A DNA stretch of 64,000 nt from the NCBI GenBank assembly GCA_000002445.1, contig CH464491.1, forward strand, positions 1,152,001 to 1,216,000, given 5' to 3'. Shown one piece after another: positions 3,768 to 33,121 of the stretch (position 1 is its first letter; each line of letters opens with the position of its first letter). The notes under the pieces were generated by a model. The model had not been told where the DNA came from. It saw only the letters and a program-made list of their open reading frames with translations, and did no database searches. The translations under genes were made by a program, and so were the position numbers. Origin of the DNA: Trypanosoma brucei. Taxonomy: Eukaryota.

Positions 3768-3795
3768 CCCCCCCCCCCCCCACACACACACACAC
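3768..3795. repeat. C14 homopolymer followed by (CA)7, 46 nt downstream of the stop of gene 288-3722
   Basis: The sequence is cccccccccccccc acacacacacacac. Confidence 0.9.
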
Positions 3796-4254: not shown

Positions 4255-4300
4255 GCATTTCTTTCCCCCTCCTCCCTTATCTACTTTTTTTTTTCCATAC
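4255..4300 (+). promoter_or_regulatory. polypyrimidine tract (candidate splice-acceptor signal) upstream of the SDHAF3-like gene
   Basis: The sequence is ttcttcgcatttctttccccctcctcccttatctacttttttttttccataccgc. Confidence 0.4.
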
Positions 4301-4637
4301 CGCTAAATATCTCATATTTGTATAGCGTGGGCCGTTGCTTTACCGCGTTGGCACGTAAACAGCACAACAACTGTCAAAATACGTCGGGCAAATAAGAAGG
4401 AACGAAGTGAGCTGCGCTCCCAGCATTGAGTGAAAAGGAAGGCTTGCCACAGTTGTAGTGGCAAGTAGTAGGTATTCAACGAAATAGTTAAAAAAAATTA
4501 TGCGAGCGAGGCCCTCTTGGCATTTACGCCTCAACAAAAATCGTGATGATGTAACCACCTTTCGTGGTTTCCCCGCTACTGCCCGTAGCTGCTGCAGCAT
4601 CGGTAGCATCAGTGGGCTCCAGGCCCTACCCCATCCA

Positions 4638-4991: not shown

Positions 4992-5991
4992 AGGGATTTA
5001 TTCTGTGAGTCCTGAGATGTACACACGGTGCGACGTATTCGTATGGATAGTTTAGGCTTTGTCCGGCAAGTGGCGTCCTTTTTTTTTTTTTTTAATGCTT
5101 ATATTCTAGCAGGTGGTCCGATGCTTCCAGTAGTGTTAATCATATCGCCATCAGTTTAGAAAATCGTTATGTTGGTAATCATTGCATTTTTTTTTTTACG
5201 TTATTGTTGTTGTCACTGTATTACTACCTTATTTAGGCGTCTGCCTATTTACTTCTCTCGCTTCCTATTTTCACACATTCCCAGCGACAGAACTAACTAA
5301 ACAGAGGAGAGGTTGAATTTAAAAAGGGAAAGTAGAGGTGGTTCGGTGGGATCCACAATCCCTATAGCAGGTAAGGTGTGGGCACACGTAAGGGGTGAAG
5401 TGTAAAAATACACACGTGTATATATTACCAGAGGAAAGAAGCGAAAAGCAACAGTAACAGAGCAAAAAAAAAAAAGGAAACAACGAAATATAAAACTAAT
5501 TTTGAGTCGAACCAAAGGAACGGTGAGAAGAGAAAACGGAATCATCAGGAAAGTATCTTCCAACGCCAAATATTGCGGGTCCCAGAAAAGCAAGAGAACA
5601 CGCTTTGTTTCTCTATTGGCCTTATCCTTCGGTATTTCACTGAGGCGGCTCGCCAGTTCTTCGTGGATAGCAGAAAAAGTTCGGAGGGCAGTTTTAGGGG
5701 GGCACGCGAGCGAAGTTTCTCCCGAGGGCATTGTGTCACACAAACTGTCAGTGGGCAAGGGATCCACACGGGAACTGGTACGACCAACTGTGCTCATCCG
5801 TGTCATCGTTTCGTCTGTGGCAACACAAAAGGCAGAGGGTGGAAAACAAGTGTGTGAGCGAGTGGGGCAACAACAGAGTACAGGAAACTGTTGGAGCTAC
5901 CGAACATTATCTTGAGGTGTTGCGCGGTTGCCCATCAGGAGACACCTGCGTTGGTGCCTGTACAAAGGGCTGTGGAGCGCACGTTCGACCG

Positions 5992-6027
5992 ATATAACAT
6001 ATATAAATATATATATATATATATATA
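5992..6027. repeat. (TA)n microsatellite, 14 nt upstream of the preferred start codon of the 5928/6042 gene
   Basis: The sequence is atataacatatataaatatatatatatatatatata. Confidence 0.9.
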
Positions 6028-6041
6028 GGGAGCCGAAGGTT

Positions 6042-9000
6042 ATGCGCCGTGCCTCTGTAGCAGTCACCCCCTCCACGTCGTCAGTGTTGGGGGGTGGTGC
6101 TTCGACGACGGGTACAGTTGATCCCACCACTGGAACGTCAGGCGCTTCGTGTCAGTCTGTTCCCCGTCTCGCTCATCGAAGTGTTATGGATACTGAAGAC
6201 GGACTAACTTCGCCAAAGCCTAGACCTCAAGACATTGTAGTGACGAAAAGTAATCCGACGCTGCGTGCATCAGCAGTGCGACCTACACTAGCCGCTTCCT
6301 CCGGAGCTCACATTCGTCGGCGGCCCCCGTCCGTTCCAGATCGGGCCGTTTCCCCTCACTTTGCCACCCCGGTCTTGTCAACACTCTGGCGAGATATGGT
6401 CGAGCACCGCACAGACCCGTCACCGGCACCGCGCTGTTCTCGAAAGCGTCGCTCCACTACATCGGCGACGGCACCACTGGCCCGTATGCCGTCAGCAGTA
6501 CTACGGGGGAGTGGGGAGCAGTCTCGGGGGAAGGCAGTTGGGCAAATAATAGAGGAGGTGGGGAGGGCTCGGTCACTCCGGCGTGTAACAAACGACAGGA
6601 AGGGGGGATCGCTACTCAGCATGCATGCTACAAACACATTCAACGGACAACGACATCTCCTGTCCCCGGTAAAGGGTTCTCTCGGGACTGCACGGCCGCC
6701 TATTGTGCTTGATGCAAAACAAAACACTCGGTCTCGCTCAATGCGGATGAAGCTGCAGGAGGTGACGCCCAGCAACAATGATGAAATGCGTAAGGAGGTC
6801 GTAAGCTGCTACAGGAAATTGTGCGAAGAGGTTGGACAGTCACCACAAGAATCGTGGATTGCCGCTGTTTTGGGCGAAAAGACCGATATTACCTCTGATT
6901 CGAATGTGGGCTTACCAATCGGTGATAGATCAACAGCGAATGACAGTGTTTGCGCTAGTGCTAGCGCCAGTGGTAGAAACATTGACCTTTCTCTGAAGCG
7001 AATGCCAAGCGGCCCAGCTCTTAGCGCGAAATCACAATCATCTGTGGAGGGGCGACAGAAAAGCAAAGGCACTTCGAAGATTCAGGGATGTTCCACTGTG
7101 AAGGCACCATCGATAGCCTCCACAACAAAGTTTACCAATCTAGCTTCTGGAGCGAACGTTTTGCGGGATGAGTCACTGCGACGAATGATAGCATATTGTG
7201 ATCACCTCCGCCCTTATAGCAGCAAGATGGAACAGTTGAAACAGCGGCGACAGGATGTGAGGGAGTCATTGAACAGATTCCTTGAGGTGTGCAACAAGAA
7301 GCAGGATGGTTTGCACGAGGATAGAGCACTTGATTCAGAGCAAGCGGCTGACAACGATAGCTCGAAATCTTTAACCATCAGTGCCCTCCAGTCGCGAGCA
7401 GATTCGTTAACTAGCGGTCTTAAGGAGTTACAGCGGTGCAACGTGAGACTACTGTTATGCCTGTCTAACTTGTCCTGTGAGGTTAGGAGGCCTTTGGGTT
7501 CCATTTCTGGTGATGCAGGGCCCGCGTCTAACGATCAGCAGCAGGAGATAGTGAAGGCTTGCAGTGTGCCAGCTGTGCCCCAGATTCAAAGTGTCCCAAA
7601 GGCATCGGCATCCCTGACATCGATTAACCTGCCTACGGCGATCCCTGCCGCTTATCTACACTTCCTTCGCTCGCAGGAGCGTATCATAGTGCAAGAACTC
7701 TCGGAGTTGTGTAACCGTGTCCGTTCAGCCTTGGCAGAGGGGACAAACATTTCTACAGCGGATGAAGGACTGCTGGAGACCCCACTGTTCCTTCCTTCGA
7801 CGTGGTCCGCATCGACCAATAGTGCTCGTGCAGTCAAAGATCGGAAACTGAGCGAACAAAAACTTCAACCGAAAACAGGGGGGAACCTAAGTGCTGCGGC
7901 GCGCCGGGCGGTTCATGCGTCGTCAGCCCCCGCCAGCAAACCCCTCACTCGCTTCGCGAGTAGTACGAAAGGTAGTGAACATAACTACAGCACGAGTAGG
8001 TGCGCCGATAGTCACAGGACTGTTGATTCTAGCAGCACCACGCATGCATCGGACGTACATTTGCCGTTTGTGGGGGTTGCGTTTGCTGACTGGGCGAATA
8101 CTAGTGATGACGAGAAGGAGAGCAGCTTGAACAGTACTTATCCTCAGCGAAATGACAGCACTGCCCGCAGTCCTAGACTTGTGATTGGGGGAGGAAAGCG
8201 GCGTTTGTCATTTGATACCGCTACCGAAAAGCATATTCGTTCCACCACCTCGGCTAACGGCGCCTTAGCTAACAAATTCTGCCGAGCGAGGTCTTCTGCA
8301 GCGGTACTCATGGGGTCGAAGAAGGTAACTCCAAAACTCAATGCGAGAAATGCCTCTCCTACGAGGACGGCAAAGCGGTCGAAGACGAAGCATTCGAAAA
8401 AGAGCAGCACGCCGGCCGTCGAAGGTGCTATCACCGCGGCGCAGATAAAGCAAGCCGAAGCTACCTGGGAAACAATCCAAGGACTAGCGCTGCGCAACTC
8501 TACGAGTGGGAATTTGGGTAGCCCCACTCAATCATTCTCCATACAGTTGGCGATGGTCCCTTCAGCGGTGGATGAGGCACGTGATGGCAACGATATGTCC
8601 ATAATTGGAGAGAGGGGTAGTCCCGCCGAAGCTGCAGGTGATTTCAGAGCCACTGGACCATCAAATCAAGAAATTTTGAGCACAAGGAAGGAGCAACTGC
8701 CATTGCTGGGGAAAGAGTACAACACTCCCGTGTGCCAAGGTGTAGAAGTAACATCCGTGGATGAAAACCACCGGCGGGTTCATGCGGCGCAGGTAATTGA
8801 ACGCTTTCTGCTCCGTTGTGTGAGGCAGAGGGCCCAACACACCGACAAGCAGAAGAAAAAGGGGAAGGAAGAGACGATGGTGGAGGAAACTGAGGCGGCA
8901 ACCGCGAAACCATTCTCCGCTCCTGTGGGTAGTGTATTTTTGTGTGACTCAGAGGCATGTAATCAAATGGCGGCACGCATAGTTCATTGCTGGCGACGAT

Positions 9001-11063
9001 ATAAGTCACGATTGGAGATAAAGCAGCTGCAGAAGCAGAGGTGGGAAGATGAACATCAGCAGCAGCGGCTGCAACACAGAAATGTTATGGCTGCTCGTCT
9101 ACAGAGTTTCTTCATTGTCAACTTAGCCGTGCGCCGCCGGCGCCGGCTTCTTCAACAGAAGCAAGAGGAAGCGCCAAAGCCTGTTGTGGCGAACTCTAAT
9201 GAAAAGTCCACAAAACCGTCCACACCAAACACTAAAACGAATAAAGAGAATGGCGGGTCCCCGGTACCGACCATGCGAGAGAGGTTTGACCGAACACGAG
9301 AGAAGCGAAAGAGTTTGTTGCGCGACCATCACGATAGGACCGAACTAAGCACAACGAGCAGTAGCGCGTCAACGAAGTCGCACACGGGTGCCCCCATGAA
9401 ATCTCTTAAAACTCGAACTCAGTCGGCAACATCTCTTGTAAAAAATAAAAGCGGCACTAGGGCAACAGTAGTTCCACCGTTACACCTGAAGTCTTCTGGT
9501 TTATCGACGCACGCTGCAGACAATTACCACCCCGATACAGTAACACTCAAGGTCGGTATGCTACACCGACTTCTTCGTGCACCGAAGCCCCTTGTGTACG
9601 CACTGCGTGTCATGTGCAGCCGTTACGAGTCACGGCCTTATTCCGCTTACGATGTCCTTGCCTCGTGCGATTGGCGTACAGTAAAGGATGATGTTGAGGA
9701 GGCTGCGGAGCACAACGAGGAGAACAGGGGTAAAGATGGCAACGCGGAGGAAATGGCTGAAACCGCTTCCATTATTAGTGGGAACAGCAGCGTGCATGCG
9801 TTCGAGAACATGATGCCAACTTCCAAACCCAGGTCTAGCGATGACTTGTACCTCCAGATCAAGTCGTATCGAGCTATATATAACTCCTCTTCACTTAAGG
9901 TGAAGGGAAATGTGAAAGATGGGAATGGCACACCTTCCTCATTTCTGAATATGTTCTCTACACACCCACCATCAGTTCGCGTGGATAGTTTTGTTGATAC
10001 GAATGAATTACGGTTTTTAGAACCCATACCCAAGTCGTTGCCGCGACCCTTCGAACACTGGAGTATTGCGCTTTCCCTTCAGCAGCGCGTGTTCACCGCG
10101 GCGGCTATCTACGCATGGAAATTAATATTCAGTCACACACCACATGACGACTATAAGCAGCGGATGCTTGACACTAGGGAAGAGCAGGAGGCCCGTCTCG
10201 ATCGCGTCGAGCAGCGGAATCGCATGATACTCGCGTGTTATTGCGTCCGCTCGGAATCTGAGTGGCTTCGGGAGGCTTCGGCAGATCTCAACTTCGTTGG
10301 TCGCATATGGAATCCGAAGCGGTCGCTCGATCCCAATGACCCTGACTTCGAACGGCATTGCCTTGAGACGTATGAGTTTGTGGAGAATTTCCTCTATCAA
10401 TGCTTTCCCACACTATCAACCCTCGAGGATGTGCCGACATTCCTAATGGGGGCGGGAATTTACTTTATGATGCAAGCAACACTCACCAAGTTGGGGGCTG
10501 GAGAGGGAGCGGAGTCATTTGTGGACGTTGGCCGGTTGGACGAAAATACGTCTTCTTTGAACGCACAGCAACGTGAATGTTTATTTGTGTACGAGTTTCT
10601 CAACCTAATCGACACGCTTTCCTTCTGGCACAGTCAGTCAAAGGGGAAGAGTAATGACGCATCCCCAACGGGGAAGTCGAGCAGCAAACAACCGGGCACC
10701 GCGGCGGCTGGGTCAACACAAACAGAGACTAGTGATGATGATTTCATTTCATGGAGGGCACACCTTGAGCGTTCCGTGAACGCTATTTTAGGCGCGTCAT
10801 CCACTGGAGTTGGCACATCAGCCACGACTGATTCCCTTACAAATTTAGACGGTAATATAACGGATTCATCTGATTGTCCACCAATTCGGTTGGTAAAGTG
10901 TCCATCTTCCAATGTTGTAGCGGGTGAAAAAGTTAGCATGGAGCGCTTTTCATTGGCTTACCCGAGTGGTTTCCTTGTGGGTCTCAGTGAGCGTTTGATG
11001 CGGTGTTTAGTGGGAGTAAAACTTGATTTGGATGTGTGTGAGGATCTTGATGTGGCCATGTGA
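6042..11063 (+). CDS. large hypothetical protein (~1673 aa from ATG 6042; ORF open from 5928), S/T/A-rich low complexity with two IQ-like calmodulin-binding motifs
   Basis: It is a continuous 5.1-kb ORF. The ORF-track start at 5928 would translate a (TA)n microsatellite (YINIYIYIY), so I prefer the ATG at 6042, 14 nt after the repeat. IQ-like motifs (AARIVHCWRRYKSRL and MAARLQSFFIVNLAVRRRRR) lie at about 8970-9140. Confidence 0.6.
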   Translation: MRRASVAVTPSTSSVLGGGASTTGTVDPTTGTSGASCQSVPRLAHRSVMDTEDGLTSPKPRPQDIVVTKSNPTLRASAVRPTLAASSGAHIRRRPPSVPDRAVSPHFATPVLSTLWRDMVEHRTDPSPAPRCSRKRRSTTSATAPLARMPSAVLRGSGEQSRGKAVGQIIEEVGRARSLRRVTNDRKGGSLLSMHATNTFNGQRHLLSPVKGSLGTARPPIVLDAKQNTRSRSMRMKLQEVTPSNNDEMRKEVVSCYRKLCEEVGQSPQESWIAAVLGEKTDITSDSNVGLPIGDRSTANDSVCASASASGRNIDLSLKRMPSGPALSAKSQSSVEGRQKSKGTSKIQGCSTVKAPSIASTTKFTNLASGANVLRDESLRRMIAYCDHLRPYSSKMEQLKQRRQDVRESLNRFLEVCNKKQDGLHEDRALDSEQAADNDSSKSLTISALQSRADSLTSGLKELQRCNVRLLLCLSNLSCEVRRPLGSISGDAGPASNDQQQEIVKACSVPAVPQIQSVPKASASLTSINLPTAIPAAYLHFLRSQERIIVQELSELCNRVRSALAEGTNISTADEGLLETPLFLPSTWSASTNSARAVKDRKLSEQKLQPKTGGNLSAAARRAVHASSAPASKPLTRFASSTKGSEHNYSTSRCADSHRTVDSSSTTHASDVHLPFVGVAFADWANTSDDEKESSLNSTYPQRNDSTARSPRLVIGGGKRRLSFDTATEKHIRSTTSANGALANKFCRARSSAAVLMGSKKVTPKLNARNASPTRTAKRSKTKHSKKSSTPAVEGAITAAQIKQAEATWETIQGLALRNSTSGNLGSPTQSFSIQLAMVPSAVDEARDGNDMSIIGERGSPAEAAGDFRATGPSNQEILSTRKEQLPLLGKEYNTPVCQGVEVTSVDENHRRVHAAQVIERFLLRCVRQRAQHTDKQKKKGKEETMVEETEAATAKPFSAPVGSVFLCDSEACNQMAARIVHCWRRYKSRLEIKQLQKQRWEDEHQQQRLQHRNVMAARLQSFFIVNLAVRRRRRLLQQKQEEAPKPVVANSNEKSTKPSTPNTKTNKENGGSPVPTMRERFDRTREKRKSLLRDHHDRTELSTTSSSASTKSHTGAPMKSLKTRTQSATSLVKNKSGTRATVVPPLHLKSSGLSTHAADNYHPDTVTLKVGMLHRLLRAPKPLVYALRVMCSRYESRPYSAYDVLASCDWRTVKDDVEEAAEHNEENRGKDGNAEEMAETASIISGNSSVHAFENMMPTSKPRSSDDLYLQIKSYRAIYNSSSLKVKGNVKDGNGTPSSFLNMFSTHPPSVRVDSFVDTNELRFLEPIPKSLPRPFEHWSIALSLQQRVFTAAAIYAWKLIFSHTPHDDYKQRMLDTREEQEARLDRVEQRNRMILACYCVRSESEWLREASADLNFVGRIWNPKRSLDPNDPDFERHCLETYEFVENFLYQCFPTLSTLEDVPTFLMGAGIYFMMQATLTKLGAGEGAESFVDVGRLDENTSSLNAQQRECLFVYEFLNLIDTLSFWHSQSKGKSNDASPTGKSSSKQPGTAAAGSTQTETSDDDFISWRAHLERSVNAILGASSTGVGTSATTDSLTNLDGNITDSSDCPPIRLVKCPSSNVVAGEKVSMERFSLAYPSGFLVGLSERLMRCLVGVKLDLDVCEDLDVAM

Positions 11064-22379: not shown

Positions 22380-23212
22380 CCATACTGAAACATCATAATG
22401 AGACTTCATCTTCCCTCCCGCAACAACTTCCAGCAAGTGAGGTACATATACATAACATGTGTATATAGACGTATGTCCCCTAAAGGAAAAAAAAATGTGA
22501 TGCCTTTCAGAAGGCGCCGCGGCTATTTCTTTTTTCTCTTTATCTGGAGGCCAGCAGTGGTCTCCGTTATAGGTGAGTGGCACCTTCCCAATTGAACATT
22601 TATCCCGTAAAAAAAAAAAACAGTACTCTCACATACTGAAGTACATTCCAGTTCAGCGTATAAAGCTGTGGCACTACATGGCTTTCACTTTTAACGGAAA
22701 GCATTACTTACACTCTTATGTTTTGTTGGTTTTGGGTGTTGGAAAAAAACATGAACGTCGGGAAAGGATGATACATCGGTAATGGTTGTTAGTGTGAATG
22801 TGATTGTGTATTTCTCCCCACTTGTGCACTTGTTGCCACTACGGGGAGAAAATAATTTTGCTATGGGGGTATATAATACATACTTCGAACTAGTAAGTGG
22901 CGTGCGCTGCCCCTTGATTGATGCAGCTCTGTGAAGAGTGCTAACAGATACCTGACTTGACACTCCGTTTTGGGGTTCGGTATGTTGTACTTAAAGGTTT
23001 ACTGGAGGTTGGTGACTAAATAATTTATGCTTGGCTTCCTGTGTACGCACAGAAAGAACTAAACCTTTGTGGATGTGAATAATTGAAATGTTGGTGAAAT
23101 GCCACGTGCACTGTTCTGGAATGTAAATTATCGCGACGAGTGTGTTGAAGAAGTAACAGAGAAATTCTCTATCGTGATGATCTCCCTTCATTAGAGTTTT
23201 AGGTGAAAGAAA

Positions 23213-23887
23213 ATGCTGTCGGAAATGTTGTTGCTTTTGTGTATATTGTCTGTCGCATCGGTGCTCAGTTTTGAAGACATGGTAACGATGACAGTTTCGT
23301 GGCCTCACAACGCAAGTTGTAAGGGAATACAAGGTGACCCGCGTGTTTGTCGGGCCCTAGCGGTTCTTGTGAAAGACGCATTTTCGAGTCGCTGCAAAAC
23401 AGTTACAGGGGACGTACGCGCAACTACCGCCGAAGCGTCTTGTCACTTGCAGTTTAAAATTAATGAAGAAACTCCTCTTTATTACCTGTGTAATGGCGAT
23501 ACCGTGAGGGAGATTATGCAGAAGCAAGAGGACCTGCACCTACCTGCGCATACCAATGGAGAGCCCGACTGTAGCAAACTCCCTGCGCGTATTGAGCTCA
23601 GTTCCGACAAGGACAGCAAAAACGCTGCTACCGTGTCAGCACCAGCAAATACTGAGAAGGAATCCAAAGGGAAACCTGAAGAGAGTCCCGCGACCGAAAC
23701 ATCGGATAACGTGACCGAAAAAACTGTCCCAGAGAAGCCGACCATTAAGGGGCCACAGACTAAAAATGAAAAAACAGTGGATGTAAAGTCTACCGAGCCG
23801 CAGAGTAAACAAAACAGTGGATCCATGCGGTCCTTATTCGGTGACCGTTGTTTTTTTATTCCTCTTTTATACAGCATGTTACTTTGA
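23213..23887 (+). CDS. predicted surface protein with N-terminal signal peptide, Cys-containing head, S/T/P/K/E-rich stalk and C-terminal hydrophobic GPI-like signal (224 aa)
   Basis: The N-terminus MLSEMLLLLCILSVASVLS is a hydrophobic signal. Six Cys lie in the first 120 aa. A mucin-like TEKESKGKPEESPATETSDNVTEKTVPEKPT region follows. The protein ends ...NSGSMRSLFGDRCFFIPLLYSMLL, a small-residue omega region plus a hydrophobic tail. Confidence 0.5.
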   Translation: MLSEMLLLLCILSVASVLSFEDMVTMTVSWPHNASCKGIQGDPRVCRALAVLVKDAFSSRCKTVTGDVRATTAEASCHLQFKINEETPLYYLCNGDTVREIMQKQEDLHLPAHTNGEPDCSKLPARIELSSDKDSKNAATVSAPANTEKESKGKPEESPATETSDNVTEKTVPEKPTIKGPQTKNEKTVDVKSTEPQSKQNSGSMRSLFGDRCFFIPLLYSMLL

Positions 23888-24904
23888 ATGAACACTGGGC
23901 TCTAAAACCCATGACTCTTTGCTTTATTCCGAAGTCATACTTTATTAAGGCTTATACGCGATAACATCTTTTTGCTTGTACGTCCATTTACCCTCCTGTA
24001 ATACGCACGCACATATATCCCCTCATAATATTCGTAGAATCATGCAAACACAAACTGCTCATGAGATAACCGATACTATTTCCGTAGAGAGTATGTGTTG
24101 GTGTTGGCATAACTGTCTTGTCACATTGAGCGTATTTTGTGTGGAGTAATATTCGCTGACTGTTAAGAAGTTTAGGATAATAGGTTCCACTTCGTAGTGG
24201 CTTGCGTGTAGCGTGCATATCTTTGTGGAAAGGAAAACTAATCAATTGTTTGTTTGACACTTATTATAGTTTGTGGTAAACGAAAGCAGTGAATATTCCC
24301 ACTGCAAAGGGAGGGAATTCCTTATGTGTGTGAGTTTGAGGAAGCTTTTCCATCTCGTAGAGAGGTAATTCTCAACGAGCTAGGAAGTTGTCGAGTATGC
24401 GTAACCCAGGGCGAAGCAGTTTGGGGAGACCACATACGTGCGCACGTATCTGTACTTTCACGTATGTATATCCCATTTGTACCTATAGCATTCTATAAGC
24501 GTTTCTCGCCATTTAATTAAACAGTGTGCGCAGGCTACAACGACAACAAAAAAGGTTTCTGTTAAAATATATGGTGTCTCCACATTAAAACATGAGAAAA
24601 TGAGTTTACTTTCGGCTGGGGCTTCTCACATAGACACCGGGACTGCGTTTAACAGAGTTTTGTCGGGAACTCCTTGGGATGTAATTGGTAAAAGCTATAA
24701 CTCTATTTCGTTTTTTGTTGCATCGGTTCCCTATTTCCGGGACCCGGTTACACTTATCCAATATGTTGTTGGAATGTTAATGCTATATATTTGTGGTGTC
24801 AGGAAATGTTAATAATAGAACGTGCAGATTGTGCTACCTTTATAGTTCCTTTTCTGTGTATCTTCAAGAGGTGAATATATTGAGCAAAGTGGAAAGCAGG
24901 AAAA

Positions 24905-25975
24905 ATGTGTGGTATTAAATATTGCGTCGTTTTGTTTGCCTTGGTGCTCCGAACAAGTATCTCCGGGGAGGGAAAAATTGTCAATGAAGATGAATTTGGA
25001 GCCCTATGTGGTATGATAAATCTGGCTCAGGCTGGATTGAGGAAGATAAAGGAGGTCCGAGAAACCATTAAAGGTACGATAAGAATTGGATCAAGATGCC
25101 TCGAGCTTACTGGGGGTAGGGTATTGGACACGATTTGTGAGGGAGAAAATAGTAGAAACTGCGAAAATCGCAGAACGTTTTGGAAGAAAGCGGAAAGTTC
25201 ATCGAACAAAAAAATAGCCGGAGACGGTCTTCTAGATCGACAAACGGAGGAAATGATTAGGAAGATAGGAGGTGAAGCCGCAGACCTATATGAGGATGTC
25301 ACGAGGAAGCAATGGGTACCATTTGCAAATGCACTGGAAGAAAAAATCAACGAAGCCCTCTATGGTGTGCCTTGGAGACCAGAAGAGATTAAGGAAAACA
25401 CTACAGACAGAAAGCAACTATGTCAGCAGGAGATTTCACGGAACGCGGTGCATTACCCACCAGCGTCGTTGAGCAGGGATTTATTATGTGTCTGCGCGAT
25501 GGACCTGGAGTCAGTGAGGAAGCACAGACTTTGCTGCGAATTTTGCGGTTACGAAGATAATCGGGAGGTTTGGAAACCAAACAAGGATTCGTGGGAAAGA
25601 TGGAACTTTCTTCGAGCACACTGTGCATTTCTTGGAGAACCTAAGGAAGATTTCGAGAAACTTGCGAGCACGTTCAGGCGCCTGATAAATCAGCAACACA
25701 ACACGCCTATCGGGGTTATGTACATCTTGGGATACCAGAAGAGAAACAGCTTCTGGTCCCTTGGGCTCTCGTCAAGGGGACCTATGGGTCCGGGTGTGCA
25801 TTATGTTTTAATGGGAAAAGAGAAAACGACTGACGATATACCATGGTTGAAACTGTTGCGAGAGGTGACAATGGAGATGGGACAACCGGCTCAAGACAAT
25901 GTCCAAGAAGGTGAGTTCACAGAGGCCCTTGAGAAGTTGGAACAAGACCTCGAAAAATTGATTCAGACAAAGTGA
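24905..25975 (+). CDS. predicted secreted cysteine-rich protein (356 aa) with N-terminal signal peptide and no C-terminal anchor; possibly a VSG-related or ESAG-like surface-family member
   Basis: The N-terminus MCGIKYCVVLFALVLRTSISG is a signal peptide. Paired cysteines occur (CLELTGGRVLDTICEGENSRNC, CVCAMD, CCEFCGY). The hydrophilic C-terminus ends EKLIQTK. I could not confirm a family by eye. Confidence 0.45.
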   Translation: MCGIKYCVVLFALVLRTSISGEGKIVNEDEFGALCGMINLAQAGLRKIKEVRETIKGTIRIGSRCLELTGGRVLDTICEGENSRNCENRRTFWKKAESSSNKKIAGDGLLDRQTEEMIRKIGGEAADLYEDVTRKQWVPFANALEEKINEALYGVPWRPEEIKENTTDRKQLCQQEISRNAVHYPPASLSRDLLCVCAMDLESVRKHRLCCEFCGYEDNREVWKPNKDSWERWNFLRAHCAFLGEPKEDFEKLASTFRRLINQQHNTPIGVMYILGYQKRNSFWSLGLSSRGPMGPGVHYVLMGKEKTTDDIPWLKLLREVTMEMGQPAQDNVQEGEFTEALEKLEQDLEKLIQTK

Positions 25976-26613
25976 GTTGGAGGTGGTTAGGAATCCTCCT
26001 ACGTATATATCCATTCCAATCAACCGGAATTTGGCAGGGGAAAATAGGTAACGAATAAGAGCAGTAAAGTAACGTGAGGAAAATGGTTTCAGAAAAAATA
26101 TTTTTTTAAAGGTCATGTCGGAAAGGGGGGATATATTGCCATAGAGAGATATTCATCCAACATGGCGGGGTAAGTCTCCGCCAGTAAAATTACTGTGATA
26201 TTTCTTAATTAAAGCGCATTGGGAGTGTTTCAATAATATGCGGTTGAGTTACCAGATTCTATACTCATATCCATTGTGCCTTCGCTTCGTAGGAAGGAGT
26301 TAATCTTCGAGAAACAATTCGTATCCATGGATCCCATCATATGGGAGGATAACTATGGAGTCGTCTTTTTTCAAGGGCATCCTGCTGCCGCAGCAACAGC
26401 AGCAGGAGGGCGGTGGAAAGTACAACTTTACTTAGGGACGCCTCCACTGCATGAATACCAGCGGAGCAAATAGTATGACCAACCATACTAGCATGTATAC
26501 TGTTTCAATGTCAGAATAAAAGGGGCACTAGCTACGGTAAAGCTCATTTCCCCTCTTTGCTTTAACTCTACCCCCAAAGGCGTGCGTACGATGCGCATTT
26601 ATCGTTTTGTCTT

Positions 26614-27091
26614 CATCCAATATTATAATTTTATTATGTTTACATGATTTTCAATACTTTTTACTTGGTTGTGGAAGATGTGGAGGAGGATGTGCACCTA
26701 TCGTGGAAATTAAATGCTGTGTCGCTGAAAAGGCGTTCAACGTATCCATTTTCCCTGTCGGAACTACCTCCTCCTCCCGCTGTTGTAGCAGCGAACACCA
26801 AATACGTGTCTTGTTACATTGTTTGGGACGTGGTCCTGGTGTGTGGAATGCGCCAGTGGTGTTCACTCATCAACCAAAAGATTAGTGTCGTTGTCTGTAT
26901 CCATAGGAAGCAAGTGTGTTGCGGAAGTTCCGTTTTAAGGGATCCTTGAGTGGATGAAGGTGTGGAAGAAATGGAAAGTGCGCACTGTGTGGCTGTTTCG
27001 GTGGCGCCGGACATAATGCAGGTTAGTGTCCCTCCAAATCTTACACAGTGCTCATCAGAACCAGAAAATAAGGAGGTTTTCATTGCACCGT
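26614..27091. repeat. copy 2 of the 478-bp direct repeat (offset +7799 bp from copy 1)
   Basis: See copy 1. The flanks outside the 478 bp are unrelated. Confidence 0.9.
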
Positions 27092-28158
27092 GCGGTGTTG
27101 CATCTTCAATACCCGCTTCATATTGGGATACATTCAATAAGATACGTCGGGCCACCATTTTACACTTTGTGCTATAGCATACGTGTGTGCAACCAACTTC
27201 GTTGTTCAGTCGAATACGTGGACCCATATATCCCCTCGATAGAAAACACGCGAAGTAGTGTTTACGGCATTTAATGATTTCACTTGACCTAACTTCTTGT
27301 AGGATGGTATGCGCGTGTGGTCACGCTGCTGCTTTTCTTTCGTCTCGGAGGCGGTGTGGGAGTCAGGTGACAGGTTGTTGCGGTATACTAGCGTTGCGAT
27401 ATGCATGGTACTGGTTTTATCACAGTTGTGGTAGAGACGCTTTTCTTTGGCGCCGTGGTACGCAAAATAAAAAAGAAAAAAACATTAATATAACCTGATG
27501 CGAATGTCTCGGGAAGTTAAGGAACCGTGCGGAAGCGGCGGGGGTGTGGAGCCCAGACTCAAGGGTTGCGTGCACCTGGGCGATTTAACATTTTTTTTTT
27601 TACAAAACTGCTGATGGTCAAGGGAGATTGTAATTGCTGTTAACTCTATGGGAAGGGAGCCGACGGACCAGACGCTAAGTGGTAGGGGATCAATTCGTGA
27701 CATTGATTATGATATATGAACGCTTTACACAAAAGATGCAAAGGGTGTAATTATATCCCCCTTGGTTGGAAGTGCTTCATTCACTTGTATCCGCTCTCAG
27801 AAGCCGGTTACACCATCGGGGGTGTGTGCATACTGGGGCACATGCCTCCATTTTGTTCTGTTTGTTGCGACCACCGTCAGCGTAGTAATACATATCACAT
27901 CTTTTGTTTCTTCGCTGCTGTTGCCAAGAGGATATCGGAGGGAAAGTGTGCCACAGAGCACGCGAACTGCCTGCCGTATGTAGTTTTACGTGTGGCGGAA
28001 TGCTGGGAGAGAGGATACGATGCGCCGAAAAGGGAAAAGTACGCACACTGTGGTGCCCTGAAAGGCTTGAGAGAAGTGGCTGTTACTGTTTATTAGTGAG
28101 GCATCATGCTCTCTGTTGTTGTTCGCTTTGAGGATTTGCTTGCGTCCGCTCTCTGGTT

Positions 28159-29466
28159 TTGACGTTATTTTTTTTTTCTTACGATCAGGATGTCTGTAAC
28201 AGCAAGGGCAGCAAAGGAAGAGAAGTTTTAGCGATGCTAATGAACACCCCGCTAAAGAGGGTAGAAGACATACCACCACTTCTTCGTGAACGGCTTACGA
28301 AAGCAGAGGAGAGCGGGTGGAAAATTCTTGACCTCTCGGGTTGTAAAGAAACTTTGGATGTCACGGCGCTCACTGAGGTCGGCATGCTGGAACAACTATC
28401 CCTGGAGGGTTGCACAAACTTGAGAAGAGGGCTGCGGGAAATATGCAACGGGGAAAGAACGCGCAATCTGAGGACGCTGCACTTAAGCAACCTACCCATG
28501 CTTGATGACACATGCATTAAGATATTGGGGGGAACACACCTACGGCTCGAACTGTTCACCTGCGCACACTGTAAGAACGTAACGAACGTTAGGCCCCTAG
28601 CGGAAATCAAGGCCCTGAAGAGCCTTTCGCTCGGACACTGCGTGAATATCAAGCATGGTCTGAAGGAAATTTGCGGAGGTCTGACGAATATGAGGGCTCT
28701 CTGGATCAACCACATACCGGCTGTCGACGATGCGTGCATTGCGGAGCTCGGCGCAAAAGGCGACGGTTACGAAGGCCATCTGATTTGGTTAATTTGCGAT
28801 GGATGTCTTGGGATAACGGATGTTACGGCCATTTCGGAGATCAAGACATTAAAGAGACTTTCGCTGACGGGATGCGAGAACATAACGAAGGGGCTAGAGG
28901 AGATGTGCGCCAGTGAGAAACTGCAGGACCTGCAAGACCTATGGGTGAATAACGTGAAGGCGTTCAGTGATAAGTGCCTTTTGAATCTGGAGGAAAGTCA
29001 CAGGAAGGGCGGATGGAAACTGCAGGTGCTCAGCACCAAAGACTGCTGCAGCATAACAGACGTGTCACCCCTGGGGAAGCTGGTAACGTTGAGGGTGCTA
29101 TGCCTTGACGGGTGCGTGAACATTAAACAAGGTCTGGATCATGTCATACTGTCGCTGGTCGATTTGAGGGAAGCGTACTTGGGAGGCATTGGCATAACCG
29201 ATAGGCATATTGAGCTGCTTGGTCGCCACAAAAAAATTGAACGATTACACCTCCCTTTTTCAGGGAACATTACAGATATTACTCCCTTAACGAATGTCTG
29301 GACACTGGAGGCTTTGTGCTTGTGCGGGTGTCTAAAGGCTACAAGGGGATTTGAAAAGTTTTCTACACTCTTCAGACTCAAAAAGTTGTGTGTGTGTGGT
29401 GTTTACGTCGATGCGGACACAGTCATGGCCCTAAAGGGTAAAGGAGTGGCTGTGAAGCTGTGGTAG
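28159..29466 (+). CDS. leucine-rich repeat protein (LRRP), ESAG8-like CC-type LRR (435 aa from 28159; more likely start Met at 28234)
   Basis: The same repeat architecture recurs (LSLEGCTNLRRGLREI, LSLGHCVNIKHGLKEI, LSLTGCENITKGLEEM, LCLDGCVNIKQGLDHV, ITDVSPLGKL). The first 25 codons overlap the oligo-T/polypyrimidine tract at 28161-28190, so the downstream Met is favoured. Confidence 0.7.
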   Translation: MTLFFFSYDQDVCNSKGSKGREVLAMLMNTPLKRVEDIPPLLRERLTKAEESGWKILDLSGCKETLDVTALTEVGMLEQLSLEGCTNLRRGLREICNGERTRNLRTLHLSNLPMLDDTCIKILGGTHLRLELFTCAHCKNVTNVRPLAEIKALKSLSLGHCVNIKHGLKEICGGLTNMRALWINHIPAVDDACIAELGAKGDGYEGHLIWLICDGCLGITDVTAISEIKTLKRLSLTGCENITKGLEEMCASEKLQDLQDLWVNNVKAFSDKCLLNLEESHRKGGWKLQVLSTKDCCSITDVSPLGKLVTLRVLCLDGCVNIKQGLDHVILSLVDLREAYLGGIGITDRHIELLGRHKKIERLHLPFSGNITDITPLTNVWTLEALCLCGCLKATRGFEKFSTLFRLKKLCVCGVYVDADTVMALKGKGVAVKLW

Positions 29467-31243
29467 TGCAACGCTACGACTCACGACGTGCTGCCAAACA
29501 GGCGCAGCGCCATGTTCGCTGTGATTGTCGTCGCAATGGATGAAATTGGGAAGGTAAAAGAGCAACTGGTGATGACCATTTTAGCGCGGTTGTGCTTGGC
29601 AGTATTTCTCCCTATAAATCCCTTCTTTTTGATTTTAGAGCTAAAGGTAGTGGCGGTGGTATTCGCATATACTTCTGTGTAGTGGCATTCGGGTTGTATG
29701 TGTTTTCCGAAGACTTGCCACACATACATATATATATATATAGAAACAGTGGGGGTTGGAAACCACGTGTCGCAAGCGGGTGCGTCACTGACAACATATA
29801 ACACCTCATGAGGCGGCGAGCATTTGGCTTCGTCCGGGGGCTCAACATTCGGGTTAGAAACGGTATTACATGCAAGAAAATGTGGGTAGCCAAAGGAGGA
29901 AATACGCCGGCATGCTTTCTGTCCACGATGTCGTTTTTAAGCCCCGTGATCATGGCCTCTTCAGGTCCGGCAGCCTGATAAGGATAAGCTTTGGAAGGCT
30001 TCAGCTGTCGGTTTGCGGCCCGCGCACCACAATTCCCCCCCCGCCCGCCTCCATGGCAGGGGCTGTTTGAGCGAGTAAGCAGAGCGCTCTCAGCACCCCA
30101 ATCGCAAATGGCTGTGGGTTTCCTTTCGTTTCTCTGCCGCGCCCCGTACGTAGTGTCTGGTCAAGCTGTTTTCCAAAGGCACCGCTCTTAATGGCACCGA
30201 GTATGCGCGGCACTCCAGGAGTGTGTTCCACTTGATTCCTCCGTTACTGCGGTCGTATCATTGTAATAACGGCGCTACCAAAAAAACGACAGCGCCTGTT
30301 GTGCACTGTAAGGCCAACCGCGCCTACCATACGTCAAAGGTTTCGAAGTTGGGTTGCTTAGGCATGGTTTTGCTTTGTTCCGCATTTTCCTCACCCTTTC
30401 ATCACTCATTCCACCCGGGTTTCTCCCGACAATTCGCCTCAAGTTGAGCTTCGCTGCGCTGTGGTCCATTTGCTGCTAGACAAATGTTCCGCCCGCAAAC
30501 GACCATCCAACACTTGCCGGCGCGTGCCCATCTTTCTAAACGCGGGACGCCATACAACAACGTGGCGCCTTGCATCCATTCCGGCGGCTGGTGGTGGTCC
30601 GTATCCCTCCAGTCCCCTCAAGTGTACCAAATTTAAGTGCATTGGTTACAAGTCAGCGTTACTCAAGTTTCCAAGTGGTTGTCAAGGCCATTTCCCCCGC
30701 ACCCACGATGGATCAACCAGTTTCAGCCACTTATGGCTGCCAGTTGTGCGACTTAACTGCTCCGCACCCCTTCCCGCTTTGCGGCGGTGTGAGTGATGAC
30801 GGAAGCGCCACAACACATTTAGTGGAAGGCGGCCTCGCGCTCGCCACTGTCGATTGAGTTGCCGGCATGGTGGCGTTAGGGCGGAAATGGGCCCGGGACC
30901 GCCCCCTCCCTCATGCCCTTGGGCGTGAAGACCCCTAATGTATGATTTGCTAAAGGACGTAAAGGGAAGAGAAGGGAAGAATCACCTCTTCGCAGCATCG
31001 GATAAGTTGGTGAAATCCACTGGACGCAAGGCGCCACATACCGCCGGTGCTCCTGCGCATAATGGAAAAGTGAAAAAAAAGATACCCATTTCTGACCCTC
31101 CCTAGAGTGCACACGCTTTTCCCCCGGAAAGCGCTATGGTGAAGGAAACGCGATTAACCGGGCATCACTCCCAGCACCCAGAAAGCATGTGTTAATAATA
31201 TGTGGCTCTGTAAGGCCCATCTCCGCGCGCTTCCGCACTCGCT
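29467..31243. terminator. convergent strand-switch region between the + cluster (ends 29466) and the - cluster (begins 31244); putative RNA Pol II transcription termination zone
   Basis: Gene orientation flips here. The region is GC-rich and non-repetitive with only short ORFs (under 115 aa). I found no tRNA A/B boxes. Kinetoplastid convergent SSRs are established termination sites marked by base J/H3.V. Confidence 0.55.
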
Positions 31244-33121
31244 TCACCTCCTCTCCAGTTGCTTCCACATGGATGATCTTTCACCCGTTCGGCCGGTGGG
31301 GGCCTCGTGGCAAAAGCGCTGAGCGCGGTTCATCATGTCTTCGGCAGCGTCATCGGGGAGTGTTCCGAGGGCCCGCAGAGCCCCTTCCAGTTCTCCGGCA
31401 TAACCATCTGGCGGAACGTCAGGGACCGCTTGTGAGGAGTCATCCGGTCCCCCTTCACAGAACTCCTCCAAGCAAATGTCCAGAAGTTCGTTTGCATTGG
31501 CACCCTCGGATGTTGTGGTTACGGATGCAGTCTCGTTAAAAATGCCCGGCTCACCCTCTGGCCGAGGTAAGGACTGGTATTCTTGCTGAAGTTCAAGGAG
31601 AGTAGTGGGAAGTGTTCCATCAATTATTGCGGCAAGCTGCTCCGCGGTGCTTTGGTCAAGTGAAGTGAATTGCTGGACGGCCGCGCTGGCAACCAGGCCG
31701 GCAAGCCGAGTCAAACTCTCAGCCCCCCGCGTAAACCACGTGGAGGCGCGATCCATGGCGATACCACCTGCGAAAACAAGAGCCGTTCGGACGCCTTGGG
31801 CCCACGCACTTCCGGACACATGTGGATTGACGATCGCTCCTATAACCGTTTCATGAGCATAGATAACAAACCTTCGCAACTCAGCCGCTACATCGATATT
31901 AGGTCGACGTTCCTGTTCAAAAGCCCGCACTAGCTCCAGATTTTCCGCAACGAGACGAGCAAGCCTGTCAGCCTCCTGCTCAATGCGTCGCTGGCGCTCC
32001 TCCGGAGTAACGGGTCCAGCGTGCCGCCCCGCTGCAAGCCACTGTGTCGTCACTTCTGAAATGCGCGATTGGAAGTGGGCAAAGCTCTCCCAGTTCCCGA
32101 CGCAGATACCCAAGAAAGCAGTGGGATTTTCCCGTATCATCGACCGGATTAGAAGGTTACCGAGCCCGTGGGTCCCGAACTCACCATCGTTGGGTGGATT
32201 CCCCCTGGTTGTGGAGGCCAGTTGGCCAAGGAGGCTGAGGATCAAGCCATCGCTTACAATTTCGTCTTCGTCAGCTTCGGTTGTGTTGTTTTCGTTGCTG
32301 TGTGGTGCAGCGGCGTCCGCCGTTCGACCTGCGTTGTGTTCGGAAGAACGATGGTTCCCACTGATTTCGGATGTCGGCTCGACGTGTGTGCTTACACTCA
32401 ACGACGGAAGATAAATACGTCTCCCCAACCGTTCGAGACGATCCGGCAGCTCGTCAAGATCGTTCGTCGTCACGTGCAGATGAATATGGAGGGATGTCGG
32501 CTCTGGAGTGGAAGAGTTGCGGCCAATGAGAACACGAGTCGATTGGTGGTGTGTCTGCATATGTTGCTGTCCTGCCTGAGGTTCTTCCTGTGGCTGCTGG
32601 GATTGCTGAGTTTGATTTTGGGATTGAGTTCGAGTTTGTTGCGGAGTTTGGGTCCCTTCAAAACGACTAAAGGCCTGAACAGCTGCGGGAAGCATTGTCC
32701 GAGCAATTGACATCATTACGGGCACACCGTCGCGCGCGTTCCCAGTGGAAGCATTCCGTATATCCGGTATGATATTTGTTAAGAACTCAGTGAGACCTGT
32801 CGGGGACATGATGCTTGCGGTGATATCCATCCCCCCACTCACTCCACGTCGAGCATCACCACTGGTGTTATTATTTGCGGCCCCTGGCGAAACCACTACA
32901 TGGACAGTAGTGCCATCTTGCAGGAAGGAGCTTAAAGGGCGTGATCCATCGATAAGCTGGCCCATGTGGATGAGGCGTAGCTGCTCCGGCGGAGCCCCGA
33001 GTCGCTCTCCTATGCGGCGGCGCAGGCCCTCAACACCTTCTTCGACATCAACCTCTAAACCATTAATTGTGTGTTCGGGTCGTGCACCGGAGACGTTGAT
33101 GTGCATTATGCCCCCACACAC
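31244..33121 (-). CDS. ubiquitin-like (UBL) domain protein, BAG6/ubiquilin-like architecture, Q-rich middle (625 aa)
   Basis: The N-terminus MHINVSGARPEHTINGLEVDVEEGVEGLRRRIGERLGAPPEQLRLIHMGQLIDGSRPLSSFLQDGTTVHVVV has a beta-grasp ubiquitin-like pattern. A Q-rich low-complexity region follows. It is the first gene of the minus-strand cluster. Confidence 0.6.
   Translation of the reverse strand: MCGGIMHINVSGARPEHTINGLEVDVEEGVEGLRRRIGERLGAPPEQLRLIHMGQLIDGSRPLSSFLQDGTTVHVVVSPGAANNNTSGDARRGVSGGMDITASIMSPTGLTEFLTNIIPDIRNASTGNARDGVPVMMSIARTMLPAAVQAFSRFEGTQTPQQTRTQSQNQTQQSQQPQEEPQAGQQHMQTHHQSTRVLIGRNSSTPEPTSLHIHLHVTTNDLDELPDRLERLGRRIYLPSLSVSTHVEPTSEISGNHRSSEHNAGRTADAAAPHSNENNTTEADEDEIVSDGLILSLLGQLASTTRGNPPNDGEFGTHGLGNLLIRSMIRENPTAFLGICVGNWESFAHFQSRISEVTTQWLAAGRHAGPVTPEERQRRIEQEADRLARLVAENLELVRAFEQERRPNIDVAAELRRFVIYAHETVIGAIVNPHVSGSAWAQGVRTALVFAGGIAMDRASTWFTRGAESLTRLAGLVASAAVQQFTSLDQSTAEQLAAIIDGTLPTTLLELQQEYQSLPRPEGEPGIFNETASVTTTSEGANANELLDICLEEFCEGGPDDSSQAVPDVPPDGYAGELEGALRALGTLPDDAAEDMMNRAQRFCHEAPTGRTGERSSMWKQLERR

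What the first reader, a model, noticed from the sequence alone, without database searches (positions are those of the whole stretch)
23213..25975. Two adjacent uncharacterised surface/secreted protein genes (one signal-peptide plus GPI-like tail, one Cys-rich secreted) inside the repeat-bracketed cassette
Both ORFs begin with strong hydrophobic signal peptides. The first ends in a small-residue omega region plus hydrophobic tail typical of GPI addition and has a mucin-like S/T/P/K/E stalk. The second has paired cysteines (CC.FCGY, C..C) and no anchor, reminiscent of the transferrin-receptor ESAG6/ESAG7 arrangement (GPI-anchored plus soluble partner). I cannot assign either to a named family from sequence alone. 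Next to an ESAG8-like gene, they could be an unannotated heterodimeric surface receptor pair.
Basis: partly seen in the sequence, partly recalled or inferred. Interest (0 to 1): 0.55.

Follow-up and report, generated by a model that had tools for sequence, protein, structure and literature searches.

The report
VSG-related gene plus orphan GPI-protein gene
The two ORFs are already-annotated Trypanosoma brucei chromosome 11 genes: a known "VSG-related" protein (VR27) that has no membrane anchor, and a lineage-specific, probably GPI-anchored protein of unknown function. They are always found next to each other, but nothing yet shows that they form a receptor.

Summary
The window is T. brucei TREU927 chromosome 11.

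**ORF2 (24905-25975)**
- It is Tb11.02.1566 / Tb927.11.4100, published as VSG-related gene VR27.
- It is a full-length b-type VSG N-terminal domain (Pfam PF13206, E=1.7e-69).
- It has a signal peptide but no VSG C-terminal domain and no GPI signal.

**ORF1 (23213-23887)**
- It is Tb11.02.1565, annotated "hypothetical, T. brucei-specific".
- Its layout is: signal peptide, a roughly 110-residue domain with six cysteines, a roughly 70-residue disordered K/E/S/T/P stalk, then a GPI-type tail.
- It has no Pfam hit, no relative outside Trypanozoon, and no significant fold match.

**The pair**
- Both mRNAs are higher in bloodstream forms, and VR27 protein has been detected by mass spectrometry.
- The two-gene unit recurs twice on chromosome 8 (VR13/VR14 with Tb927.8.7310/7330).
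- Strain comparisons show patchwise gene conversion between the chromosome 8 and chromosome 11 copies.
- ORF1 and ORF2 are not paralogs, so the ESAG6/7 analogy holds only for the GPI+/GPI- adjacency.
- A physical ORF1-VR27 complex remains untested. I put it at about 0.2.

The genes are already known; only the pairing idea is new.

The parts
23213..23887 (+). ORF1 = Tb11.02.1565 (probably Tb927.11.4090; I inferred that ID from neighbouring IDs). 224 aa. Layout: signal peptide (1-19/20), six-cysteine alpha/beta domain (about 21-130), disordered K/E/S/T/P stalk (about 131-200), GPI-type signal (omega N201/S202, tail CFFIPLLYSMLL).
24905..25975 (+). ORF2 = Tb11.02.1566 = Tb927.11.4100 = VSG-related VR27. 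356 aa. Signal peptide plus a b-type VSG N-terminal domain only; no C-terminal domain, no GPI signal.
23888..24904 (+). Intergenic region between the two genes, holding the ORF1 3'UTR and the ORF2 5'UTR with its pyrimidine tracts. Together with the ORF1 3' end and the first ~70 codons of ORF2, it forms the block shared between the chromosome 8 and chromosome 11 units.
   Evidence: The T. equiperdum OVI contig switches from the chr11 type to the chr8 VR type inside this block; similarity to the window ends at 25113. It is 4.3% diverged in IVM-t1, against 0.3-1.5% in the flanks. Pyrimidine tracts are visible at about 24700-24740.
21267..22379 (+). Upstream leucine-rich repeat protein gene (Tb11.02.1564, LRRP, ESAG8-like).
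   Evidence: Pfam LRR_4 E=1.3e-15. Annotated LRRP, 5.1-fold higher in bloodstream forms, and 2.8-fold derepressed in the H3.V knockout.
28234..29466 (+). Downstream LRRP gene (Tb11.02.1580), the last gene before the convergent strand-switch region. The listed ORF starts at a TTG at 28159; the ATG at 28234 gives the 410 aa called in strain IVM-t1.
   Evidence: Pfam LRR_4 E=1.3e-12. The L002 gene model is 410 aa. 2.2-fold higher in the H3.V knockout.
18815..19292 (+). Left copy of the 478-bp direct repeat that brackets the LRRP-ORF1-ORF2 segment.
   Evidence: 98.7% identical to 26614-27091. Both copies are also present in strain IVM-t1.
26614..27091 (+). Right copy of the 478-bp direct repeat.

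Best explanation
The region holds a two-gene, bloodstream-stage surface or secretory unit of T. brucei. It sits at the end of an RNA polymerase II polycistron, just before a convergent strand-switch region.

Shown:
- ORF2 is the known VSG-related protein VR27. It is a b-type VSG N-terminal domain with a signal peptide, and it has no C-terminal domain and no GPI signal.
- ORF1 is a Trypanozoon-restricted orphan. It has three paralogs in TREU927, and each one lies beside a VR gene of the same subclade.
- Both mRNAs are several-fold higher in bloodstream forms than in procyclic forms.
- VR27 protein is abundant in bloodstream forms and was modified by a reagent applied to live cells.
- ORF1 and the two flanking LRRP genes rise 2.2-2.8-fold when histone H3.V is deleted. 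In that study, such derepression was attributed to read-through at Pol II termination sites inside gene clusters.
- The chromosome 8 and chromosome 11 units exchange sequence by patchwise gene conversion.

Inferred:
- Both proteins enter the ER.
- ORF1 is cleaved at N201 or S202 and given a GPI anchor. It then presents a small disulfide-bonded head on a flexible stalk of about 70 residues, long enough to span much of the VSG coat.
- VR27 folds like a VSG N-terminal domain and is released without an anchor. It is therefore either soluble in the flagellar pocket or endosomal lumen, or held at the surface non-covalently.

I consider it most likely that these are two co-regulated but separately acting invariant surface or secretory proteins, adjacent because the segment was duplicated as a block. 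Direct tethering of VR27 by ORF1 is the minority reading, at about 0.2.
For: Identity:
- ORF1 is 100% identical to Tb11.02.1565. ORF2 is 98% identical to its cluster representative, Lister 427 VSG-1421, and the TREU927 VR protein EAN79375.1 is a member of the same cluster.
- PF13206 hit at 235 bits over the full profile. No a-type VSG or VSG C-terminal-domain hit in any of five VRs.
- VR27 naming and bloodstream-form over procyclic expression for Tb11.02.1564.1565 and .1566 and for the chromosome 8 paralogs.

Protein level: 322 PSMs, 28 peptides, 59.3% coverage, flagged fluoresceinated.

Regulation: H3.V-dependent repression of .1564.1565 and .1580.

Location: + strand ORFs run up to 29466 and - strand ORFs start at 31244. 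There are no tandem or 70-bp repeats.

Paired duplication:
- VR13/VR14 alternate with Tb927.8.7310/7330 (PMC4288722; adjacent accession numbers).
- The pair is present and collinear in T. b. equiperdum IVM-t1 and adjacent in T. equiperdum OVI.

Coding constraint: dN/dS is 0.37 and 0.63 for ORF1 and 0.33 for ORF2. The only indel in ORF1 is in frame.

Gene conversion: 6 of 8 changes in the IVM-t1 GPI tail are to the chromosome 8 paralog residues. Divergence is confined to patches.

Against paralogy within the pair: hhalign probability 0.1%.
Against: - No dedicated signal-peptide or GPI predictor could be run, and no experiment has located ORF1.
- ORF1 protein is absent from the 1683-protein Gadelha table. 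That could mean low abundance, heavy modification or few usable tryptic peptides, but it could also mean the protein is not made.
- VR27's signal in that dataset is as high in two unlabelled controls as in labelled samples. So surface enrichment of this particular VR is not demonstrated.
- An anchor-less protein that stays cell-associated at that abundance needs some explanation. The separately-acting model does not supply one.
- The ORF2 structure model is poor (mean pLDDT 51).
Confidence: 0.75

Rival explanations
1. A split-VSG-like heteromer. The anchor-less VR27 (a VSG N-terminal domain) is held on the membrane by ORF1. ORF1's head, stalk and GPI anchor would then stand in for the missing VSG C-terminal domain and anchor, giving an invariant, VSG-shaped surface complex or receptor.
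For: - GPI+/GPI- adjacency is seen in every copy of the unit: chromosome 11, twice on chromosome 8, and both equiperdum strains.
- The two are co-expressed in bloodstream forms.
- VR27 has no anchor yet is abundant in cell preparations and was labelled on live cells.
- Mature VR27 has an odd number of cysteines (11), so one may be free.
- Neither ORF1 nor VR27 has a T. b. gambiense DAL972 entry in the protein collection, while the chromosome 3 VR does. The chromosome 8 genes are all absent together from T. evansi.
Against: - The adjacency and the joint losses can each come from single segmental events, so they count as very few independent observations.
- The nearest anchor-less VR, on chromosome 3, has no ORF with a signal peptide and GPI tail within 10 kb.
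- In T. equiperdum OVI a chr11-type ORF1 sits next to a chr8-type VR that is only 46% identical to VR27. That argues against a tightly co-evolved interface, if the contig is not chimeric.
- ORF1 was not detected where VR27 gave 322 PSMs.
- No complex prediction could be run.
Confidence: 0.2
2. ORF1 is a transcribed but non-functional or untranslated ORF, carried along with the VR gene. Only VR27 would be a working gene.
For: - No protein-level detection in the dataset checked.
- No homologs outside Trypanozoon and no recognisable fold.
- Constraint is weak in the stalk (dN/dS 0.66).
Against: - The reading frame is intact in five sequences from three genomes, with an in-frame indel.
- Six invariant cysteines, a conserved signal peptide and a conserved GPI-type tail persist across paralogs that are only 52-55% identical.
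- dN/dS is 0.37-0.43 in the folded domain.
- AF2 gives a confident compact domain from only four sequences.
- The mRNA is stage-regulated.
Confidence: 0.05
3. VR27 serves as a silent donor of sequence for mosaic VSG formation, and is not a protein with its own function.
For: - It belongs to the VSG superfamily, and it is listed in the Lister 427 VSG catalogue as VSG-1421.
- The locus shows ectopic gene conversion.
Against: - It is chromosome-internal, with no tandem repeats of any period (so no 70-bp repeat array) and no C-terminal domain.
- It is conserved under purifying selection (dN/dS 0.33).
- The mRNA is abundant and the protein is detected at 59% coverage in cells expressing another VSG.
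- Its closest relatives are only other VRs.
Confidence: 0.03

Closest known systems
VSG-related (VR) genes of T. brucei (VR1-VR36; this one is VR27, closest to VR13/VR14 on chromosome 8)
   Same: ORF2 is a member. It has a b-type VSG N-terminal domain, lies chromosome-internal next to a strand-switch region with no tandem-repeat array of any kind upstream, and is expressed from a Pol II unit mainly in bloodstream forms.
   Different: Nothing differs for ORF2 itself. What the papers I read mention only in passing is that this VR subclade (VR27, VR13, VR14) always travels with an ORF1-type gene.
Canonical b-type VSGs (for example VSG3 6ELC, mVSG1954 8B3W)
   Same: Same N-terminal domain family (PF13206). 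The best structural matches of the model are these proteins.
   Different: ORF2 has no C-terminal domain and no GPI signal, is not telomeric or subtelomeric, and is invariant. Its sequence similarity to solved VSGs is weak (E=6e-4).
ESAG6/ESAG7 transferrin receptor
   Same: Tandem genes, one product with a GPI signal and one without, both with signal peptides and both expressed in bloodstream forms.
   Different: ESAG6 and ESAG7 are near-identical paralogs of the a-type VSG lineage, located in telomeric expression sites. ORF1 and ORF2 are unrelated to each other, ORF2 is b-type, and the locus is chromosome-internal.
Fam1 (Tb927.6.1310 array) of the cell-surface phylome
   Same: T. brucei-specific, b-type VSG-like, lacks the VSG C-terminal domain, lies at a strand-switch region, and is expressed in bloodstream forms.
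   Different: Fam1 proteins carry their own predicted GPI signal. VR27 does not; in this locus the GPI signal is on the neighbouring, unrelated ORF1.
Fam4-7 of the cell-surface phylome (T. brucei-specific GPI-anchored glycoproteins at strand-switch regions)
   Same: ORF1 fits the description exactly: signal peptide, predicted GPI, no similarity to known proteins, next to a strand-switch region, in tandem copies, and biased to bloodstream forms.
   Different: I could not verify membership. The family tables were not available in the text held.

Membership tests
b-type VSG N-terminal domain (Pfam PF13206, VSG_B) | Score above the Pfam gathering threshold over most of the profile | tested here: met
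   ORF2 scores 235.2 bits against a cut-off of 25, E=1.7e-69, covering profile positions 1-352 of 352. All five aligned VRs match.
VSG-related (VR) genes | Chromosome-internal position at a strand-switch region, not in a telomeric or subtelomeric array | tested here: met
   Housekeeping-type genes flank on both sides, and the strands converge between 29466 and 31244. The papers describe VRs in exactly these terms.
VSG-related (VR) genes | No 70-bp repeat array upstream | tested here: met
   Tandem Repeats Finder reports nothing in 17000-31500.
VSG-related (VR) genes | Listed as a VR in the published catalogue | tested here: met
   Tb11.02.1566 is listed as 'VSG-related VR27' (Jensen 2009 supplement; main text).
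Canonical VSG | VSG C-terminal domain followed by a GPI signal | tested here: not met
   ORF2 ends ...EKLEQDLEKLIQTK with no hydrophobic tail. No C-terminal-domain family was hit at E<=1.
ESAG6/ESAG7-type receptor pair | The two subunits are paralogs of each other | tested here: not met
   Profile-profile comparison of the ORF1 and ORF2 families gives probability 0.1%, E=0.54.
ESAG6/ESAG7-type receptor pair | a-type VSG-like fold | tested here: not met
ESAG6/ESAG7-type receptor pair | Tandem genes, one with and one without a GPI signal | tested here: met
   ORF1 has omega candidates, a spacer and a 12-residue tail. ORF2 has none of these.
ESAG6/ESAG7-type receptor pair | The two products form a heterodimer that binds a host ligand | not testable with these tools
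   No complex prediction or binding data were available.
GPI-anchored protein (ORF1) | N-terminal signal peptide | tested here: met
   Hydrophobic core with KD8 3.49 and (-3,-1) sites. Flagged 'signal peptide = 1, TMD = 0' in the Jensen 2009 table. SignalP itself was not run.
GPI-anchored protein (ORF1) | C-terminal omega site, polar spacer and hydrophobic tail | tested here: met
   NSG or SGS at 201-204, an 8-9 residue spacer and the tail CFFIPLLYSMLL. All five sequences keep this layout. This is my own rule-based check only.
GPI-anchored protein (ORF1) | Anchor demonstrated, or predicted by PredGPI or big-PI | not testable with these tools
   The predictors are not installed, and no experimental data were found.
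VSG C-terminal domain (as a possible identity for the ORF1 head) | Sequence or fold similarity to VSG C-terminal domains | tested here: not met

The most novel reading that the evidence does not exclude
VR27 and ORF1 form a 'split VSG'. An anchor-less b-type VSG N-terminal domain would be displayed on the bloodstream-form surface by a non-homologous, GPI-anchored stalk protein encoded immediately upstream. The unit would be inherited, duplicated and gene-converted as one cassette. This would explain how anchor-less VR proteins stay surface-associated, and it would define a new type of invariant heteromeric surface complex in T. brucei.
Probability: 0.18. Interest if true: 0.7.

Novelty: already known. 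Interest (0 to 1): 0.3.

Why it matters
VR proteins are invariant, VSG-like, and expressed in the mammalian stage, but their function is unknown. It is also unexplained how the members without an anchor remain at the cell surface.

This locus offers a specific, easily tested candidate: a conserved GPI-anchored neighbour. If that idea is wrong, the locus is simply a correctly annotated pair of lineage-specific surface-protein genes. Its main remaining interest would then be as a clear example of patchwise gene conversion between dispersed paralogous units.

Tried and rejected
**Looking for relatives of ORF1**
- Pfam at E<=10 on four family members gave nothing meaningful.
- A profile search of 1.84 billion representative proteins returned only the query's own cluster.

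**ORF1 head as a VSG C-terminal domain:** rejected.

**ORF1 and ORF2 as paralogs, ESAG6/7-style:** rejected by hhalign.

**Extending the VR27 family**
- A single-sequence search and a profile search both found only the same four clusters.
- A sequence search of the PDB gave only a marginal VSG hit.

**Structure and fold searches**
- The AF2 model of ORF2 was poor (pLDDT 51), so its fold search is only corroborative.
- The afdb50 fold library was unavailable.

**Fetching the chromosome 8 and chromosome 3 TREU927 loci by exact protein** failed. I used loci from T. equiperdum OVI, T. b. equiperdum IVM-t1 and T. b. gambiense instead.

**Cys65 as a partner-specific free cysteine:** dropped as evidence. 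VRs without an ORF1-type neighbour also have an odd cysteine count.

**Literature and family tables**
- Marcello & Barry 2007 is not held.
- The phylome family tables and a GPI-prediction supplement were not available.
- The 478-bp repeat was read but not identified.
Full report
**1. What is at the coordinates**

The ORF list shows 23213-23887 (+, 224 aa) and 24905-25975 (+, 356 aa), exactly as reported. Leucine-rich repeat ORFs lie on both sides, at 21267-22379 and 28159-29466. Large ORFs are on the + strand up to 29466 and on the - strand from 31244. The pair therefore sits at the end of a transcription unit, just before a convergent strand-switch region.

ORF1 is 100% identical to "hypothetical protein Tb11.02.1565" of Trypanosoma brucei brucei TREU927. 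ORF2 clusters with "VSG-related, putative" EAN79375.1 of the same strain, and is 98% identical to Lister 427 VSG-1421. The - strand neighbours fit chromosome 11: a ubiquitin-like protein, a dual-specificity phosphatase and a PSP1-domain protein.

**2.

- Both proteins start with a strongly hydrophobic segment followed by small-residue cleavage motifs.
- ORF1 ends in NSGSMRSLFGDR-CFFIPLLYSMLL. That gives small omega candidates, an 8-9 residue polar spacer and a 12-residue uncharged tail. The tail is too short for a membrane span, and all five family members keep the layout.
- ORF1 residues about 131-205 are rich in K, S, T, E and P, and AlphaFold2 predicts them as disordered.
- ORF2 has 11 cysteines in the mature part and a hydrophilic C-terminus.

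These checks are my own rules. SignalP and the GPI predictors were not available. An independent table does list both genes as "signal peptide 1, TMD 0".

**3. ORF2 is a known gene of a known family**

- It matches Pfam PF13206 (b-type VSG domain) at 235 bits against a cut-off of 25, over the whole profile.
- It matches no a-type VSG model and no VSG C-terminal-domain model.
- Jensen et al. 2009 list Tb11.02.1566 as VSG-related gene VR27. It is 8-fold higher in cultured bloodstream forms than in procyclic forms, and is classed BF>>PF.
- The same paper describes VR genes as lying at chromosome-internal strand-switch regions without 70-bp repeats. I found no tandem repeats anywhere in 17000-31500.
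- In the Gadelha et al. 2015 surface-labelling proteome, Tb927.11.4100 (= Tb427tmp.02.1566) has 322 PSMs, 28 peptides and 59.3% coverage, and carries the "fluoresceinated" flag.
- Its signal is equally high in two unlabelled controls. So that table shows abundance and exposure to the label, not clear enrichment, for this particular VR.

**4. ORF1 is a lineage-restricted orphan**

- It has no Pfam hit, even at E<=10.
- A profile search of 1.84 billion representative proteins returned only its own cluster.
- The word-indexed search found only two TREU927 paralogs (Tb927.8.7310 and Tb927.8.7330, 50-54% identical) and a T. equiperdum ortholog. A T. b. equiperdum IVM-t1 ortholog shares its cluster.
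- AlphaFold2 gives a compact alpha/beta domain for residues 21-130 (pLDDT 66-92) with six invariant cysteines.
- The mRNA is 4.8-fold higher in bloodstream forms. It is expressed in Lister 427 at an RPKM of about 16.
- The protein is not in the Gadelha table.
- Its description fits the "Fam4-7" T. brucei-specific GPI glycoproteins at strand-switch regions. I could not confirm that membership.

**5. The two genes travel together**

- On chromosome 8, TREU927 carries a tandem repeat of two VR genes (Tb927.8.7300 and 7320, = VR13 and VR14) and two hypothetical genes (7310 and 7330). These are the closest relatives of ORF2 and of ORF1 respectively, and their accession numbers alternate.
- T. b. 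equiperdum IVM-t1 has the same LRRP-ORF1-VR27-LRRP order, collinear over 20.7 kb at 98.2% identity.
- A T. equiperdum OVI contig has a chr11-type LRRP and ORF1, followed by a VR that is 99% identical to VR13/14 and only 46% identical to VR27. It then continues into genes that are not in this window. That contig is either a real recombinant or an assembly chimera.
- ORF1 and ORF2 are not related to each other (hhalign probability 0.1%).

**6. Evolution of the unit**

Paralogs are about 50% identical in the ORF1 head and about 47% in the VR body. They are nearly identical in the ORF1 stalk and tail and in the first 39 residues of the VR. Strain comparisons show that this pattern comes at least partly from gene conversion.

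| Strain compared with TREU927 | ORF1 head | ORF1 stalk and tail | Downstream intergenic | Flanking sequence |
|---|---|---|---|---|
| IVM-t1 | 1.5% | 8.6% | 4.3% | 0.3-1.8% |
| OVI | 8.3% | 3.6% | 0% over the first 348 bp, 1.3% over the last 372 bp | 0.2-0.75% |

- In IVM-t1, 6 of 8 changes in the GPI tail are to the chromosome 8 residues (SIPTIFGGR...TLL).
- dN/dS stays below 1: ORF1 0.37 and 0.63, ORF2 0.33. The only indel in ORF1 is in frame. Both are therefore coding sequences under constraint.

**7. Regulation**

In Lister 427, Tb427tmp.02.1564.1565 and .1580 rise 2.2-2.8-fold when histone H3.V is deleted. That study attributes such derepression to read-through at Pol II termination sites inside gene clusters.

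**8. How it most likely works**

Shown: the gene identities, the family of ORF2, bloodstream-stage mRNA for both genes, abundant VR27 protein, and the paired duplication with gene conversion.

Inferred:
- Both products enter the ER.
- ORF1 receives a GPI anchor at N201 or S202 and displays a small disulfide-bonded head on a flexible stalk of about 70 residues.
- VR27 is an anchor-less VSG-like domain. It is either soluble in the flagellar pocket or endocytic lumen, or bound non-covalently at the surface.

I think separate action is the more likely case. My reasons:
- The adjacency can be explained by one or two segmental duplications.
- The nearest anchor-less VR, on chromosome 3 (examined in T. 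b. gambiense), has no ORF with a signal peptide and GPI tail within 10 kb.
- ORF1 was not detected where VR27 was abundant.

The tethering ("split VSG") reading stays open at roughly 0.2. It is attractive because it would explain how an anchor-less VR remains cell-associated.

**9. Verdict**

- The surface or secretory nature and the GPI+/GPI- arrangement are right.
- "Unannotated" and "no named family" are wrong for ORF2.
- The ESAG6/7 comparison holds only as an analogy of arrangement.
- The heterodimer idea is untested.

Both genes are already in the reference annotation, and ORF2 is a named VR. The novelty class is therefore "already known", with modest interest resting on the testable pairing hypothesis.

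Noticed in passing
window 18815-19292 and 26614-27091: A 478-bp direct repeat (98.7% identical) brackets the LRRP-ORF1-ORF2 segment. Both copies are also present in T. b. equiperdum IVM-t1. The repeat contains no obvious gene, and I did not identify what it is.
   Followed up: partly
window 23609-24904 compared with L002 (T. b. equiperdum IVM-t1): The ORF1 stalk and tail and the downstream intergenic region are 4-9% diverged, in a locus that is otherwise 0.3-1.8% diverged. Six of eight amino-acid changes in the tail match the chromosome 8 paralogs. This is a conversion tract between chromosomes 8 and 11.
   Followed up: yes
L001 (T. equiperdum OVI, CZPT02000251.1) 1-14634: The contig joins a chr11-type LRRP and ORF1 (about 99.5% identical to the window outside the ORF1 coding sequence) to a VR13/14-type VR, and then to RCC1, EMP24 and ERGIC genes that are not in this window. 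It is either a real recombinant locus or an assembly chimera at the shared intergenic block.
   Followed up: partly
window 24236-24532: About 297 bp of the ORF1-ORF2 intergenic region has no counterpart in the T. equiperdum OVI contig.
   Followed up: no
window 21267-22379 and 28234-29466: Two diverged LRRP (ESAG8-like) genes flank the pair. In published data, both of them and ORF1 are derepressed 2.2-2.8-fold in an H3.V knockout. The chromosome 3 VR cluster also contains an LRRP gene.
   Followed up: partly
L003 (T. b. gambiense chr 3) 7822-9129: The 435-aa VR gene model next to the anchor-less 366-aa VR runs through a hydrophobic KILLLLLLNL stretch and on into low-complexity sequence. This may be a lost stop codon after a former GPI signal, or a gene-model error.
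   Followed up: no
window 24905-25975 (protein level): Mature VR27 has 11 cysteines, an odd number. Cys65 is shared only with VR13/14. The chromosome 3 relatives lack Cys65 but have another extra cysteine, so they also total 11.
   Followed up: partly
window 21383-22267 (- strand): A 294-aa ORF lies antisense inside the upstream LRRP gene. It is most likely a frame artefact of the repetitive LRR coding sequence.
   Followed up: no
window 288-3722 and 5928-11063: Two long + strand ORFs (1144 and 1711 aa) have no Pfam match at E<=0.001.
   Followed up: no
protein collection look-up: Neither ORF1 nor VR27 has a T. b. gambiense DAL972 member in its cluster, whereas the chromosome 3 VR does. The chromosome 11 pair may be missing from, or unannotated in, that subspecies.
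   Followed up: no
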